Source of the DNA: an uncultured Candidatus Saccharibacteria bacterium | GTDB taxonomy: Bacteria; Patescibacteriota; Minisyncoccia; Portnoybacterales; UBA2143 | DNA length: 64,000 nucleotides | Direction of reading: 5' to 3' | Assembly: GCA_964629675.1 (NCBI GenBank) | Contig: CAZVUG010000009.1 | Coordinates: 17,523 to 81,522 of the forward strand | Shown: positions 45,532 through 51,058 of the stretch, in pieces | How the letters are laid out: the number at the start of each line of letters is the position of its first letter | Numbering within the stretch: position 1 is the first letter of the stretch | Program-made: the position numbers and the translations under genes | The notes under the pieces: model-generated | What the model saw: only the letters and a program-made list of their open reading frames with translations | What the model was told of the DNA's origin: nothing | Databases searched by the model: none

Positions 45532-46068
45532 TTAATATTTTACCAGATTTAAGCTGTTTTGTAAAAAATACCTTGATTTTAAATGATTTCCTAAAAGGGA
45601 TTCAATAAAAAGGGCTGTTTTGTCTTGTTGGCCATAGCCTAAAGCTTCTATTATTCTTATCTCAAAATCTTTAATGATTTTGCGGACATCCTCTTCTTTT
45701 TTATTTAATTGGCAGAAAGCCAAAAGAATAGTATTCCAAATGCGCTCATCTCTCTCTGGGCCAATCATTAATCTGTCTATTATTTCAGCTAAATAATATG
45801 AAGCTGCCAAGGCGGGCAAACTTCGGTGAAGGAAAAGAAATCCTCTAATTAGTTCTGCTCCAGTAATTAAGGGCCAGCTTTTTGTCGGAATCGCCATTAA
45901 ATGGACATAAGAAAAAAGCTCTAAATGGCCTTTTAATTTGGCTTGTTTTTTTCTGATTGCCTTAGCTTTAAGCAGTAATTTCCCAAAATCTTTTGTGTAA
46001 ACAGTTAACAGCCGGTCTGTTTCTCCCGAATTAATATTTTTAATAATAATGCCCTGCGTTTTGTACAT
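45532..46068 (-). CDS. recO: DNA repair protein RecO (short form)
   Basis: N-terminal OB pattern (GIIIKNINSGETDRLLTVYTKDFGKLLLKAKAIRK) plus a helical domain. 178 aa; no zinc finger visible. Confidence 0.65.
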   Translation of the reverse strand: MYKTQGIIIKNINSGETDRLLTVYTKDFGKLLLKAKAIRKKQAKLKGHLELFSYVHLMAIPTKSWPLITGAELIRGFLFLHRSLPALAASYYLAEIIDRLMIGPERDERIWNTILLAFCQLNKKEEDVRKIIKDFEIRIIEALGYGQQDKTALFIESLLGNHLKSRYFLQNSLNLVKY

Positions 46069-46074
46069 CTAAAT

Positions 46075-49000
46075 TTAGCGCACGCTTTTGATGCCCAGCC
46101 AAATTTTTTGATTATTTAAAGAAATCTCTTTCTCTACTAAAAAAGCTTCTTTTCGGCGAGAGCCGTTTTCTATTTGCGAAGCTGAAATTTCTTTTTTGAT
46201 TTCCGTAAGATTATTCTGAATTAATCTCTCTAATAAATCTTGCCCAGTATAGCGCAGATAGATTAATTGGCTAGGCCGCAAATTGCCGTTTTTCCTCATT
46301 TCTTGAATATAACGAATAAGATCTCTCAGCATTCCTTCTTGTTGGAGAGCGCTCGTTATCTTAGTGTCCAGCTCAATTTCTCCTTTAATCTTAGGATCAT
46401 AAACTATTTTTTTAACATTAATTTCTTCTTTAAATATTTCCAGTAATTCCTGGTCGCTGCTCAAATTCTTGCTTTTAATCTTTAATTCACGTAAAGGCTG
46501 TCTGACTTTAATTCCCTGAGCAGCTCTCTGGGCTAAAACAGCTGCGGACAGCTCCCTAATTTTCCCCATTTTTATCTCTAACTCCTGATTAATTAATTCC
46601 GGAGACACTTTTGGCCAAGAGCATAAATGAACTGACTCTCCTTTTCCTAAGTGCTGATAAATTTCTTCCGTTAGGAAAGGGATAAAAGGAGCAGCTAATT
46701 TTGAAAATTCCAAAAGAACAAAACTATAAATTTTCTCGGCCTCTTTTTTTTCTCGGTTGTTTTGCGGCTTTTGAAAGCGCCGACGAGAGCGCCTAACATA
46801 CCAATTAGAAAAATCATCTAGAAAAAGATCAAGCGAGCGGGAAGCCTTAGTTAAATCATATTTATCCATCCAGTTAGCAACTTCTGCATTTAAACTATTT
46901 AATTTAGAAATGATCCAAGAATCCAAGATATTTTTCGGCTTAACTGATTTGGGGGCTTTCGTCTTTTGAGGAGCATAAGTATTTAGAAAGATAAAGCAAT
47001 TCCAAAGAGTCATGACAAATCGGCGAAATGTTTCGGCAATTTTTTTCTCCGAAGCTACACAGTCTTCACCCATTGGCGTACTTGAAAGAAGAAAATACCT
47101 TAAGGTGTCTGCTCCGTATTGATCAAAGATAATTTCTGGAGGAGTATAATTTCTTAAGCGTTTTGAAAGTTTTTTGCCGTCTTCTCCCAAAATAAAACCA
47201 TTGACAACAACATTCTTAAAAGCTGGCTGTTCTTTAGCCAAGCCGATTTCTTTACTGGAAGAATCTTTTTTTGTCAAAGCGCTGGCCAAGACATGGAGAG
47301 TATAAAACCAGCCTCTGGTTTGATCAATGCCTTCAGCAATAAAATGGGCTGGAAATGTTTTTTCCAATAATTTTTTGTTCTCAAAAGGATAATGCCATTG
47401 TCCATAAGGCATTGAGCCTGATTCAAACCAGCAGTCAAAAACTTCGCTAGTTCTTTTCATTTCTTTTCCGCAAACAGGGCATCTAACCTTAGTCCGGTCA
47501 ATATATGGTAAATGAAGATTAAGATCGCCTTTTTTATCGAAAGGAAGTTTTTTAAAAACAAGCTTTTTAAGTTCTCCTGGATTTAAAATAGATTTTTTCC
47601 TTCGGTCAGCTATTTGCTGGTTGCTGAATCCTTGGCTAGCATCATTTAAAACCCAAAGTGGATCTCCGTGACTGACTATCAGAATATTTTTATTTTGGTA
47701 TTTTTTCTCAACAGACAGAAGAAAATTCATCATTCTTCTCTTTAACTGGCTTAAACTTTCTGCTTGAAACGGCTTGCGGTTAAATCTTTTAAGCTGGTCA
47801 TTGTCAAAATAGGCATTGTATTCTTTGATAGATTTTCCCTTAAACTGCCCGACTTCCATATCTCGCAGGCGTTTATCATAAATAATTTTACTGCCTAATG
47901 CCTTAGCGATAATAGAAGCTGTTTGCTTAGTCCGATAAAAATCAGAAGAAAAAATTAAATCTATTTTATTCTTTTGCAAAAATGGAACGTGTTCTTTTAT
48001 CTTCTCTTCAGCTTTTTTCGTTATTTTAACTTTTCTGTTTTCTTCATCAGAATAAATAATGCCATTAATATTATTTTGTGTTTCTCCGTGGCGAAGCAGG
48101 AAATATTTATTATTCTGCTGGCTATTTTTCTTTAAGTCTTCTAAAGAACCGGCGACTAATTTTTCGCCGCAATGGCTGCATTGCCAAACCGGGATAGGAG
48201 CTCCCCAATAACGATTGCGAGAGATAGCCCAATCGCGAGCTCCTTCCAGCCATTTACCGAAACGGCCATGTTTAAGATGGCTAGGCACCCATCTAATTTT
48301 TTCGTTATTGCTGATTAATTCTTTTTTAATTTTACTAACAGCAACGTACCAGCTATTGATAGGAAAATAAAGTAAAGGACTGTCGCACCGCCAGCAATGG
48401 GGATAGCTATGGATAATTTCTTCTTCTTTAAAAAGAAACCCTCTTTTAGCTAAATCTTCTTTAATTTCTTTGTCTGCTTTTTTTACGAACAAGCCTTCTC
48501 CGGGAATATGCAAATTTTTTATCATCTTTCCTTCTTCATCCACAGTAACTAGCGTTGGCAATTTTTCTTTTTTGCCTAATTCCATATCCTCCTCGCCAAA
48601 AGCTGGAGCAATATGGACAATTCCTGTTCCTTCTTCAGTAGAAACAAAATCTGCCGGAACAATTAAATAACCCGGCTTATCTAATTTCATTTTATACAAT
48701 GGCTGATACTCTTTACCCAATAATTCTTTGCCTAGAAACTCTTTTTCAATTTGGGCTTCCTTGCCTAAAACACCTAATTTTTCTTGAGCCAGGATATAAT
48801 AATCATTGTTCAATTTAGCTTTAACATATTTAATATCTGTGCCAACAGCTAAGGCGGTATTAGCCGGCAAAGTCCAAGGAGTGGTTGTCCAAGCTAATAA
48901 ATAAACATTTTTTTCTCCTTTTAAAAGAAGTTTGATATAGACTGAGCCTTCTTTAACATCGCGATAGGCTCCTGGCTGATTTAATTCAAAATTTGACAGA

Positions 49001-49542
49001 GGCGTTCCACAGCGCGGACAATAAGGAGTAACTCGATAATCTTGATAAACCAATCCTTTTTCCCATAGTTTTTTAAAAACCCACCACGATGATTCAATAT
49101 AGTTATTATCCATCGTCGAATAAGGATTGGAATTATCAAACCATCTGCCTACCCGATTAAGAGTTTTTACCCATTGGCTAGTACATTTAAAAACTGACGA
49201 TTGGCAAGCCGTATTAAATTTTTCAATGCCAAATTCTTCAATTTCCTTTTTATTCTTCAGGCCAACTTCTTTTTCGATCATGTTTTCTACTGGTAAGCCG
49301 TGACAATCCCAGCCAACACGCCAAGAAATCCGATATCCTTTCATTGCCCAGTAGCGTAAAACTGTATCTTTAATAGCGCTTGCCAAGATATGGCCATAAT
49401 GAGGTAAGCCTGACGCAAAAGGCGGACCGTCAAAAAAGCTAAAGAAAGGTCGCTTTTCTCTTAATTTGACTGATTTAGCAAAAATATTTTCTTTCTGCCA
49501 AAATTTTAATATTTTCTTTTCTATCTTAGGAATTTGATTCAT
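46075..49542 (-). CDS. ileS: Isoleucyl-tRNA synthetase with an embedded histidine-phosphatase (PGAM-like) domain
   Basis: PHYGHIL (HIGH), CP1 editing region, KLSKRLRNY (KMSKS), SRNRYWGAPIPVW and EVFDCWFESGSMPY. Residues about 472-672 carry LLRHGETQNN, SSDFYRTKQTA, RDMEVGQFKG, AESLSQL and LIVSHGDPL. Confidence 0.9.
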   Translation of the reverse strand: MNQIPKIEKKILKFWQKENIFAKSVKLREKRPFFSFFDGPPFASGLPHYGHILASAIKDTVLRYWAMKGYRISWRVGWDCHGLPVENMIEKEVGLKNKKEIEEFGIEKFNTACQSSVFKCTSQWVKTLNRVGRWFDNSNPYSTMDNNYIESSWWVFKKLWEKGLVYQDYRVTPYCPRCGTPLSNFELNQPGAYRDVKEGSVYIKLLLKGEKNVYLLAWTTTPWTLPANTALAVGTDIKYVKAKLNNDYYILAQEKLGVLGKEAQIEKEFLGKELLGKEYQPLYKMKLDKPGYLIVPADFVSTEEGTGIVHIAPAFGEEDMELGKKEKLPTLVTVDEEGKMIKNLHIPGEGLFVKKADKEIKEDLAKRGFLFKEEEIIHSYPHCWRCDSPLLYFPINSWYVAVSKIKKELISNNEKIRWVPSHLKHGRFGKWLEGARDWAISRNRYWGAPIPVWQCSHCGEKLVAGSLEDLKKNSQQNNKYFLLRHGETQNNINGIIYSDEENRKVKITKKAEEKIKEHVPFLQKNKIDLIFSSDFYRTKQTASIIAKALGSKIIYDKRLRDMEVGQFKGKSIKEYNAYFDNDQLKRFNRKPFQAESLSQLKRRMMNFLLSVEKKYQNKNILIVSHGDPLWVLNDASQGFSNQQIADRRKKSILNPGELKKLVFKKLPFDKKGDLNLHLPYIDRTKVRCPVCGKEMKRTSEVFDCWFESGSMPYGQWHYPFENKKLLEKTFPAHFIAEGIDQTRGWFYTLHVLASALTKKDSSSKEIGLAKEQPAFKNVVVNGFILGEDGKKLSKRLRNYTPPEIIFDQYGADTLRYFLLSSTPMGEDCVASEKKIAETFRRFVMTLWNCFIFLNTYAPQKTKAPKSVKPKNILDSWIISKLNSLNAEVANWMDKYDLTKASRSLDLFLDDFSNWYVRRSRRRFQKPQNNREKKEAEKIYSFVLLEFSKLAAPFIPFLTEEIYQHLGKGESVHLCSWPKVSPELINQELEIKMGKIRELSAAVLAQRAAQGIKVRQPLRELKIKSKNLSSDQELLEIFKEEINVKKIVYDPKIKGEIELDTKITSALQQEGMLRDLIRYIQEMRKNGNLRPSQLIYLRYTGQDLLERLIQNNLTEIKKEISASQIENGSRRKEAFLVEKEISLNNQKIWLGIKSVR

Positions 49543-49543
49543 A

Positions 49544-51058
49544 TTACATTTTTTCCGGCGTTGTTATACCCATTAGCTCTAAAGTGTTTTTTAAAACAAT
49601 TTGCGTTGCTTTAATTAAGCTTAGGCGAGCTTGGCTTAAATCTTTCTGCTGAGCATCTAAAACTCGACACTTCTCATAAAATTGGTGAAAAGAATTAGCC
49701 AGTTCTAAAGAATAAGCTGGTAATTGCTGCACTTGATAATCTTGGGCAATTTTTTCAATTATTTCCGGAAATTGCGCTAATTTTTTAATTAAATTTAATT
49801 CAGCCTCTTCTGAAAAAACATCTTTAATTTGAGGCTTTAGCTTTGTTTTTTCTAAAATACCGCAAATTCTAGCATAAGCATATTGAATATAATAAACAGG
49901 ATTTTTAGCTGACTGCTCACGGGCTAGCTGAAGATCAAAATTCAAATGAGTATCTGGAGATTTTTCCAAAAAGAAGAAACGGACAACATCAGGACCAACT
50001 TCGTCTAATAATTCGTCCAAAGGAATATATCGGCCTAGGCGCTTAGACATTCTTTGTCTTACTCCTTTTTCTAGAATAGTTACAAATTGCAAAAGAATAA
50101 TTTCTAATTTCCCTTGATAACCCAAAGCTTCGATGCCAGCCATTAACCCTGGAATATCACCGTGATGATCAGCTCCCCAAATATTAATGACTTTAGCAAA
50201 ATGCTTATCTTTAATTTTGTAATTATGCAAAGCAATATCTCCGGCTAAATAAGTTTTGCTGTCGTCTTTCTTGATCAGAACCCGATCTCGGCTATCGCCA
50301 AATTTTGACGACTTAAACCAGGTTGCTTTTTCTTTCTGATAAATTAAACCTCTTTTCTGCAAAAAATTCAATATTTCATCCACTTGGCCTGACTGGTAAA
50401 GCTGAGATTCAAAAATCCATTCGTCATATTTAATACCTAGTTTGTCAGTCGTTTTTTTGATATATTTTTTAATAATATGGCTGGCGGCTTTTGCTCCTGC
50501 TTTTTGCAGATCTTTTTCTTTAATTATTTTATGTAAATCATCAATGTATTTTCCCTGATATTTAGCTTGCTCGTCTTGCAAAACGGAATGCCCTAAGGAA
50601 ATAATCTGTTGGCCGTAATCATTAACGTAATACGCTTTTTCCGCAAGATAGCCAGCTTTCGCTAAAACATTAGCTAAGACATCGCCAAAAGGACCGCCGC
50701 GAGCGTTAGCGACTGTCAAAGGTCCAGTTGGATTAGCCGAAATAAATTCCACCTGCACTTTTTCTTTTTGGCCAATATCCAGCTGGCCATAATTATTTTC
50801 TTTTTTAATAATCTCTTTTAATTCTGCCAAAAGACATTTTCGAGATAAGGTAAAGTTAATAAAGCCTGGACCGGCTACTTCAACTTTTTCAAAGATTGGC
50901 TCTTTTTGCAACTGGCTAGTTATTTTTTGCGGGTCGATTTTAACCTGCAAAGCAATATTAGTTGAATAATCGCCAAAATCAGGATTAGCCGGATGTTCCA
51001 GATTTACTTCTTGCTGAACTAATTCTTCGATAATCTCTTTAATTTTTGTCTTAATCAT
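49544..51058 (-). CDS. argS: Arginyl-tRNA synthetase
   Basis: FISANPTGPLTVANARG (HIGH region), C-terminal DALR anticodon-binding region ending in M. 504 aa. Confidence 0.9.
   Translation of the reverse strand: MIKTKIKEIIEELVQQEVNLEHPANPDFGDYSTNIALQVKIDPQKITSQLQKEPIFEKVEVAGPGFINFTLSRKCLLAELKEIIKKENNYGQLDIGQKEKVQVEFISANPTGPLTVANARGGPFGDVLANVLAKAGYLAEKAYYVNDYGQQIISLGHSVLQDEQAKYQGKYIDDLHKIIKEKDLQKAGAKAASHIIKKYIKKTTDKLGIKYDEWIFESQLYQSGQVDEILNFLQKRGLIYQKEKATWFKSSKFGDSRDRVLIKKDDSKTYLAGDIALHNYKIKDKHFAKVINIWGADHHGDIPGLMAGIEALGYQGKLEIILLQFVTILEKGVRQRMSKRLGRYIPLDELLDEVGPDVVRFFFLEKSPDTHLNFDLQLAREQSAKNPVYYIQYAYARICGILEKTKLKPQIKDVFSEEAELNLIKKLAQFPEIIEKIAQDYQVQQLPAYSLELANSFHQFYEKCRVLDAQQKDLSQARLSLIKATQIVLKNTLELMGITTPEKM

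What the first reader, a model, noticed from the sequence alone, without database searches (positions are those of the whole stretch)
47527..48129. Isoleucyl-tRNA synthetase with an in-frame embedded histidine-phosphatase (PGAM-like) domain
Seen in sequence:
- The 1155-aa IleRS ORF is uninterrupted and has the normal class I landmarks: PHYGHIL, CP1 region, SRNRYWGAPIPVW, EVFDCWFESGSMPY, KLSKR.
- Between VAGSLEDL (about residue 470) and DLNLHLPYIDRTKVRCPVCG (about residue 673) lie roughly 200 extra residues.
- These residues carry, in the canonical order, every hallmark of histidine phosphatase superfamily branch 1:
  - LLRHGETQNN (RHG catalytic His)
  - SSDFYRTKQTA (second Arg)
  - RLRDMEVGQFKG (E...G...G)
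  - AESLSQLKRR (GES-like)
  - LIVSHGDPL (second His)

Established knowledge: in IleRS sequences I know, both bacterial type 1 and eukaryote-like type 2, the two flanking motifs are only a few tens of residues apart. No phosphatase fold is part of the enzyme.

Inference: a catalytically intact phosphatase or mutase module is grafted onto the surface of the Rossmann/CP region. Candidate substrates include a nucleotide by-product (Ap4A-type), a tRNA end, or an inhibitor. I do not know this architecture to be described.
Basis: partly seen in the sequence, partly recalled or inferred. Interest (0 to 1): 0.85.

Follow-up and report, generated by a model that had tools for sequence, protein, structure and literature searches.

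The report
Phosphatase module built into isoleucyl-tRNA synthetase
The isoleucyl-tRNA synthetase of this tiny-genome (Patescibacteria/CPR) bacterium really does carry an intact histidine-phosphatase domain in a surface loop; hundreds of related species have the same phosphatase either inserted in this enzyme or encoded immediately upstream of it, so it is a conserved partner whose substrate is still unknown.

Summary
ORF 46075..49542 (-) is an uninterrupted 1155-aa type-2 IleRS. Residues 472-672 are a His_Phos_1 domain (Pfam E=1e-31) that replaces a 4-13-residue loop of the CP3 zinc knuckle.

It is not an assembly chimera. The same insert is present in 62 of the 120 closest IleRSs and in 75 of the 80 best loci from species-representative genomes.

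The module looks catalytically active: 473 of 478 distinct modules keep all five catalytic residues. It lacks the residues specific to cofactor-dependent phosphoglycerate mutase, so it is phosphatase-type.

New here: the same subfamily also exists as a free-standing ~190-aa gene. In 35 of 36 informative loci ileS lies next downstream, and in 36 of 40 loci the two genes overlap or lie within 24 nt. Other lineages insert 1-3 modules at other IleRS sites. Rare cases sit in ValRS, ArgRS and TsaC, and one IleRS carries HAD phosphatases instead.

The architecture was mentioned once, without explanation, for SR1 bacteria (Kantor 2013).

Best reading: a phosphatase that works with IleRS, most plausibly on tRNA(Ile). 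The substrate is inferred, not shown.

The parts
46075..49542 (-). ileS: 1155-aa type-2 isoleucyl-tRNA synthetase carrying the inserted module
   Evidence: Single ORF. TIGR00392 874.5 bits against cut-off 621.4. Pfam tRNA-synt_1, Anticodon_1 and DUF5915. Foldseek TMt 0.83 to P. megaterium IleRS2 8c8v and 0.91 to T. thermophilus 1ile. It is the only IleRS in the window.
48130..49542 (-). IleRS N-terminal part, residues 1-471: first half of the Rossmann fold, CP core, CP1 editing domain, CP2 and the first half of CP3
   Evidence: 76% identical to residues 1-472 of insert-less P0016. Pfam tRNA-synt_1 covers 10-480.
49384..49404 (-). HIGH signature PHYGHIL (residues 47-53)
   Evidence: Translation checked. 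The same motif occurs in both insert-bearing and insert-less relatives.
48169..48180 (-). First CxxC (CSHC, residues 455-458) of the CP3 zinc knuckle
   Evidence: C455 is invariant and C458 is at least 90% conserved in the 78-sequence alignment. CP3 carries a zinc-binding motif in T. thermophilus IleRS (Chung 2020).
47527..48129 (-). Inserted histidine-phosphatase module, residues 472-672 (the finding's coordinates)
   Evidence: Absent from 58 of the 120 closest IleRSs, where a 4-13-residue loop takes its place. Pfam His_Phos_1 E=2.9e-32. AF2 pLDDT 93-97.
47614..48102 (-). Pfam His_Phos_1 match, residues 481-643
   Evidence: coordinates.
48085..48093 (-). RHG motif: R484 and the nucleophile H485
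   Evidence: Invariant in 62 of 62 relatives. Aligns to R10/H11 of E. coli GpmA.
47932..47934 (-). R537, second phosphate-binding arginine
   Evidence: Invariant in 62 of 62. Aligns to GpmA R62.
47860..47862 (-). D561, general acid position
   Evidence: E in 36 and D in 26 of 62 relatives. Aligns to GpmA E89.
47656..47676 (-). VSHGDPL with H625, the second catalytic histidine
   Evidence: H625 is invariant. Aligns to GpmA H184. The following residue is D where dPGM has N186.
47491..47580 (-). C-terminal junction, residues 655-684: last module strand (PGELKKL), a connector found only in embedded forms (VFKKLPFDKKG), and the return into CP3 (DLNLHLPYID)
   Evidence: Free-standing homologs end after GELRKL. 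The connector P667 and G672 are at least 90% conserved. The linker is modelled with pLDDT about 90.
47470..47481 (-). Second CxxC (CPVC, residues 688-691) of the CP3 zinc knuckle
   Evidence: C688 and C691 are invariant.
46075..47526 (-). IleRS C-terminal part, residues 673-1155 plus stop: second half of the Rossmann fold (WFESG, KLSKR), anticodon-binding domain and type-2 C-terminal domain
   Evidence: 66% identical to P0016 residues 475-942. Pfam Anticodon_1 and DUF5915.
47158..47172 (-). KMSKS signature KLSKR (residues 791-795)
49544..51058 (-). argS, directly upstream; its stop is 1 nt from the ileS start
   Evidence: Pfam Arg_tRNA_synt_N, tRNA-synt_1d and DALR_1. Junction TAA-T-ATG. In relatives the free-standing phosphatase gene lies between argS and ileS.
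45532..46068 (-). recO, directly downstream (conserved synteny)
   Evidence: Pfam RecO_N. Insert-less relatives L081-L084 have the same gene order.

Best explanation
The segment is a genuine, catalytically competent histidine-phosphatase (His_Phos_1, short-cap PhoE/iPSP/CobC type) module. It belongs to a Patescibacteria-specific subfamily whose defining property is partnership with isoleucyl-tRNA synthetase.

In this genome the module is inserted into the loop of the CP3 zinc knuckle and leaves the synthetase intact. In other lineages the same protein is made from a separate gene whose stop codon overlaps or abuts the ileS start codon. In still others it is inserted at different IleRS loops, in one to three copies.

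Proposed mechanism (inferred): IleRS serves as the docking platform, and the tethered or co-translated phosphatase removes a phosphomonoester from something IleRS holds. The most plausible target is tRNA(Ile), for example a 2'/3'-phosphate at a damaged or blocked acceptor end, which would be healed so the tRNA can be charged.

Shown here: the fold, the intact catalytic residues, the insertion point, the intact IleRS, the lineage-wide fused-or-adjacent distribution, and the multiple insertion sites.

Inferred: that the enzyme is active, that it acts together with IleRS, and the identity of the substrate.
For: Real and intact:
- Pfam E=1e-31.
- 62 of 62 close relatives keep R484, H485, R537, D/E561 and H625; 473 of 478 distinct modules keep all five.
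- AF2 pLDDT is 93-97 in the module and about 90 in both linkers.
- The IleRS core superposes on solved IleRS2 with TM 0.83-0.91.

Not a chimera:
- 75 of the 80 best loci from species-representative genomes have the colinear N-module-C arrangement, across many Parcubacteria groups.

Partnership with IleRS:
- Of the 150 best representatives, 85 are IleRS-embedded and 61 free-standing.
- All 5 free-standing GTDB copies, and 35 of 36 informative free-standing metagenome copies, have ileS next downstream on the same strand.
- In 40 such loci the phosphatase stop overlaps the ileS start in 20 and lies 1-24 nt away in 16.
- Modules occur at three or more different IleRS regions and in 1-3 copies in 107 of 110 full-length Gracilibacteria/Peregrinibacteria-type IleRSs.
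- Copies within one protein are only 27-36% identical, so they are old and maintained.
- One IleRS (P0321) lacks His_Phos but carries two HAD-family phosphatase modules at a site that relatives use for His_Phos.

Why a macromolecular (tRNA) substrate is favoured:
- The insertion sites range from the catalytic domain to the anticodon-binding domain. Tethering, rather than precise geometry, therefore seems to be what is selected, and tethering helps mainly with a substrate that is itself bound to IleRS.
- The co-inserted P-loop kinase modules have their best, weak, matches to tRNA/RNA kinases: PSTK E=4e-10 and Pnkp1 E=8e-4.
- Rare fusions are all to tRNA-related enzymes: ValRS, ArgRS and TsaC.
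Against: - No activity or substrate has been tested.
- Sister lineages with identical synteny (P0017, P0022, P0035) have neither the insert nor an adjacent copy. One free-standing copy has no ileS nearby (L089). So IleRS does not need the module.
- The module is no more basic than the rest of IleRS (pI 9.25 against 9.09).
- Published IleRS-tRNA structures do not describe CP3 contacting tRNA, and I could not measure distances in the model.
- No His_Phos_1 enzyme is known to me to act on RNA ends.
- The kinase similarities are far below family cut-offs.
- Adjacency to ileS could partly reflect the strongly conserved argS-ileS-recO synteny of these genomes.
- Locus counts include some near-identical contigs, so they are not all independent lineages.
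Confidence: 0.38

Rival explanations
1. The module is a small-molecule 'housecleaning' or by-product phosphatase tied to adenylate chemistry. It would hydrolyse pyrophosphate or a nucleotide monophosphate ester produced or mis-used during ATP-dependent adenylate formation, pulling the reaction forward or sanitising the nucleotide pool.
For: - Every host found (IleRS, ValRS, ArgRS, TsaC) converts ATP to an adenylate plus pyrophosphate.
- Other domains inserted in related IleRSs are classic housecleaning families: Nudix, HAD and P-loop nucleotide-kinase-like.
- The HAD module's matches include the pyrophosphatase PpaX, at 38 bits, below cut-off.
- The closest solved relatives are broad-specificity small-molecule phosphatases: iPSP1, PhoE, CobC and TIGAR.
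Against: - Fast-diffusing small molecules gain little from tethering, yet physical linkage was selected repeatedly at several sites.
- The association is overwhelmingly with IleRS rather than with adenylate-forming enzymes in general.
- To my knowledge no branch-1 histidine phosphatase is known as a pyrophosphatase.
Confidence: 0.22
2. The module is an unrelated metabolic enzyme, with IleRS as a mere expression scaffold. In particular it could be the 'missing' phosphoglycerate mutase of some Parcubacteria, or a phosphoserine-type phosphatase, riding on a constitutively expressed essential gene in a streamlined genome.
For: - Jaffe et al. [quoted passage not shown] A domain hidden inside IleRS would be missed by gene-level annotation.
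- The best NCBIfam hit is the short archaeal dPGM family.
- The closest solved structure is a metal-independent phosphoserine phosphatase.
- The module is dispensable in sister lineages and can stand alone.
- CP3 is a structurally variable, permissive subdomain.
Against: - dPGM membership fails. The score is 87-92 bits against a cut-off of 225. Y92 and K100 are not conserved, R116/R117 are deleted together with a 29-residue cap, and N186 is mostly D.
- An independent enzyme would not be expected to stay fused or translationally coupled to ileS across Parcubacteria and Gracilibacteria/Peregrinibacteria-type lineages, nor to be re-inserted at three or more IleRS sites.
- Up to three divergent copies in one IleRS are hard to explain by dosage.
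Confidence: 0.18
3. The module is a protein phosphatase acting in cis on IleRS (or in trans on neighbouring translation factors). It would reverse inhibitory phosphorylation, for example by Hip-type or other kinases that target class I synthetases.
For: - The His_Phos_1 superfamily includes protein phosphatases (SixA, PGAM5, Sts-1; established knowledge). There is a weak SixA similarity, 29 bits against a cut-off of 74.5.
- A cis-acting enzyme would tolerate many insertion sites.
- Kinase modules are co-inserted in some IleRSs.
Against: - The co-inserted kinases are P-loop PSTK/PNK-like, not protein-kinase-like.
- No phosphosite evidence exists.
- There is no PADLOC or toxin-antitoxin signal.
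- Sister lineages lack the module.
Confidence: 0.1
4. The feature is an artefact or is inert: an assembly chimera, or a decayed domain kept only as structural filler.
For: The window comes from a metagenome-type contig, and read mapping could not be done.
Against: - The same in-frame architecture appears on more than 100 independent contigs from many projects.
- Composition is flat across the junctions.
- 473 of 478 modules retain all five catalytic residues at about 40% overall identity.
Confidence: 0.01

Closest known systems
Type-2 (eukaryote-like, mupirocin-resistant) IleRS, e.g. Priestia megaterium IleRS2 (8c8v), Thermus thermophilus IleRS (1ile), yeast IleRS-tRNA (8wnd)
   Same: Full domain set, with HIGH, KMSKS, CP1, a CP3 zinc knuckle and the DUF5915-type C-terminal domain. 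TM-scores are 0.81-0.91.
   Different: About 200 extra residues forming a phosphatase domain inside the CP3 loop. No solved IleRS has this.
Short-cap broad-specificity His_Phos_1 phosphatases: Hydrogenobacter thermophilus metal-independent phosphoserine phosphatase iPSP1 (4ij5), Geobacillus PhoE (1ebb/1h2e), CobC alpha-ribazole phosphatase (6nru, 6e4b), TIGAR (3dcy)
   Same: Same fold and catalytic pentad, and a short cap region. These are the best sequence matches among solved structures, at E=1e-10 to 1e-5.
   Different: - Scores are far below every NCBIfam equivalog cut-off.
- The subfamily has its own signatures: NxYFxLRHG, WPE, SHGDPLW.
- It is never a free metabolic gene; it is fused or coupled to ileS.
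SR1 (Absconditabacteria) IleRS noted by Kantor et al. 2013 (PMC3812714), and NCBIfam NF040702 'ileS_w_GNAT'
   Same: IleRS of CPR bacteria interrupted by accessory catalytic domains, including 'phosphoglycerate mutase' domains. These belong to the same phenomenon as the multi-module proteins found here.
   Different: The window protein is the simplest form, with one module in CP3 and no Nudix or GNAT. The prior mention is one sentence, with no analysis of distribution, catalytic integrity or the free-standing operon form.
Cis/trans aaRS editing modules (ProRS INS versus YbaK/ProX; AlaRS editing versus AlaX; archaeal split ThrRS-ed)
   Same: The same evolutionary logic: an accessory hydrolase is either inserted in the synthetase or encoded as a separate protein that works with it.
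   Different: A different fold and different chemistry (phosphomonoester rather than aminoacyl ester). IleRS already has its CP1 editing domain. A functional analogy has not been shown.
tRNA-enzyme-linked end-healing phosphatases: the HD domain of E. coli CCA-adding enzyme, and T4 / bacterial polynucleotide kinase-phosphatase (Pnkp)
   Same: A phosphatase physically joined to an enzyme that handles tRNA ends. Some related IleRSs also carry a PNK/PSTK-like P-loop kinase or HAD phosphatases, which parallels the kinase plus phosphatase make-up of Pnkp.
   Different: Unrelated phosphatase folds (HD, HAD, calcineurin-like). RNA-end activity of this module is purely hypothetical.
Mycobacterial Rv2228c-type bifunctional RNase H / CobC-like acid phosphatase (NF005567)
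   Same: A His_Phos_1 domain fused to a nucleic-acid enzyme. The module scores 70-74 bits against this family.
   Different: Below the cut-off of 326. It is a terminal fusion rather than an internal insertion, and the partner enzyme is different.

Membership tests
Histidine phosphatase superfamily branch 1 (Pfam PF00300) | Profile score above the gathering threshold | tested here: met
   107.4 bits in the full protein and 112.4 bits for the insert alone, against a cut-off of 21.7.
Histidine phosphatase superfamily branch 1 (Pfam PF00300) | Catalytic pentad: RHG Arg and nucleophile His, second Arg, acidic proton donor, second His | tested here: met
   R484, H485, R537, D561 and H625 align to GpmA R10, H11, R62, E89 and H184. 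They are invariant in 62 of 62 relatives, with D or E at the acid position, and are kept in 473 of 478 modules.
Histidine phosphatase superfamily branch 1 (Pfam PF00300) | Autonomous alpha/beta fold | tested here: met
   AF2 gives pLDDT 93-97 over residues 479-661 with alternating strands and helices. Free-standing ~190-aa homologs exist.
Histidine phosphatase superfamily branch 1 (Pfam PF00300) | Phosphoryl-transfer activity through a phosphohistidine intermediate | not testable with these tools
   Requires an enzyme assay with an H485A control.
Cofactor-dependent phosphoglycerate mutase (dPGM) | Score above the curated equivalog or subfamily cut-offs | tested here: not met
   NF038349 scores 87-92 against 225. 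TIGR01258 scores 32.6 against 81.7. NF002901 scores 63-68 against 261.
   Y92 is V/L/F. K100 is V/I/K. R116/R117 fall in a 29-residue deletion. N186 is D in 43 and N in 6 of 62. There is no tail.
Alpha-ribazole phosphatase CobC, phosphoserine phosphatase PspA, phosphohistidine phosphatase SixA | Score above the NCBIfam equivalog cut-off | tested here: not met
   CobC TIGR03162 scores 75-80 against 162.9. PspA NF045917 scores 58-63 against 350. SixA TIGR00249 scores 28.9 against 74.5.
Isoleucyl-tRNA synthetase (TIGR00392), type 2 | Equivalog score, with HIGH and KMSKS signatures | tested here: met
   874.5 bits against 621.4. PHYGHIL at 47-53 and KLSKR at 791-795.
Isoleucyl-tRNA synthetase (TIGR00392), type 2 | Type-2 C-terminal domain, and closest structures are type 2 | tested here: met
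   Pfam DUF5915. Best Foldseek hits are IleRS2 8c8v/8c9d, yeast and T. thermophilus IleRS; type-1 structures rank lower.
Isoleucyl-tRNA synthetase (TIGR00392), type 2 | Aminoacylation and editing activity retained despite the insert | not testable with these tools
   Indirect support only. It is the only IleRS in the 64-kb window, and the motifs and fold are intact. The rest of the genome was not available.
Intein or other self-splicing insertion | Cys/Ser/Thr at the N-junction and His-Asn followed by Cys/Ser/Thr at the C-junction; Hint fold | tested here: not met
   The junctions read ...SLEDL|KKNSQQ... and ...FDKKG|DLNLH.... No Hint or intein Pfam hit. No flanking DNA repeats.
aaRS cis/trans accessory (editing-type) module | The same module occurs either inserted in the synthetase or as a separate gene linked to it | tested here: met
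   38 embedded against 35 ileS-linked free-standing copies among the metagenome loci, and 75 against 5 among the GTDB loci. 36 of 40 linked genes overlap ileS or lie within 24 nt.
aaRS cis/trans accessory (editing-type) module | Acts on the synthetase's own substrate or product | not testable with these tools
   Requires biochemistry.
RNA/tRNA end-healing phosphatase (Pnkp, Cca-HD type; functional class) | Removes 2'/3'-terminal or cyclic phosphate from RNA | not testable with these tools
   Circumstantial only: the tethering logic, and weak PSTK/Pnkp1 similarity of co-inserted kinase modules in relatives.

The most novel reading that the evidence does not exclude
In Patescibacteria, IleRS is a docking platform for a toolkit of tRNA(Ile)-directed enzymes. 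These are a histidine phosphatase (nearly universal) and, in some lineages, a PNK/PSTK-like kinase, Nudix, GNAT, HAD phosphatase and hydrolase modules.

On this reading the phosphatase module in the window heals 2'/3'-phosphorylated, cyclic-phosphate or pyrophosphorylated tRNA(Ile) ends in cis, immediately before charging. That would be a previously unrecognised, synthetase-coupled tRNA repair and quality-control system.
Probability: 0.2. Interest if true: 0.9.

Novelty: new variant of a known kind. Interest (0 to 1): 0.64.

Why it matters
Aminoacyl-tRNA synthetases are among the most conserved enzymes known. In bacteria, accessory catalytic domains inside them are essentially limited to editing domains.

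Here a different chemistry, phosphomonoester hydrolysis, has been kept as a partner of IleRS across a very large radiation. It occurs fused at several sites or translationally coupled, and the catalytic residues are almost never lost. That points to an unrecognised step linked to isoleucine charging in organisms with minimal genomes.

Possible payoffs:
- If the substrate is tRNA, this would be a new kind of synthetase-coupled RNA repair.
- If it is a metabolite, it may fill annotated gaps in CPR metabolism, such as the 'missing' PGM, which gene-level annotation would miss because the domain is hidden inside ileS.
- Either way it is a clean, expressible system with a defined domain, an obvious H485A control and natural insert-less sister enzymes. 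It also shows that CP3 and other IleRS loops tolerate whole-domain insertions, which is useful for engineering.

Tried and rejected
1. **IleRS lacking CP1.** I first read the 915-980-aa proteins with the module at residue ~260 as IleRS without the editing domain. BLAST showed they are N-terminally truncated fragments colinear with query residues ~216-472, so I rejected this.

2. **HAD phosphatase at the CP3 site.** I first placed the HAD modules of P0321 in CP3. Reading the sequence showed two tandem HAD modules at the second site, between ESGAMPYA and ADFIAEGLDQTRGWF.

3. **Intein or mobile-element insertion.** No splicing residues, no Hint domain and no flanking repeats.

4. **Anti-phage defence.** No PADLOC hits.

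5. **Basic surface as a sign of RNA binding.** The module's pI is the same as the rest of IleRS, so this is uninformative.

6. **Locating CP3 relative to tRNA from the literature.** Chung 2020 and the 2024 yeast IleRS-tRNA paper do not describe CP3-tRNA contacts.

7. **Excluding PGM via SR1.** SR1 keeps the lower part of glycolysis, so this argument fails.

8. **One gain or many.**
   - The neighbour-joining tree of IleRS flanks shows that insert-bearing enzymes are not monophyletic.
   - UPGMA of 348 modules needs about 33 free/embedded changes, against about 90 when labels are shuffled.
   - With about 190 columns this cannot fix the number or direction of transitions.

9. **Technical dead ends.** The 27-sequence alignment was too diverse for the metagenome scan. 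A Biopython neighbour-joining run on 357 sequences timed out.

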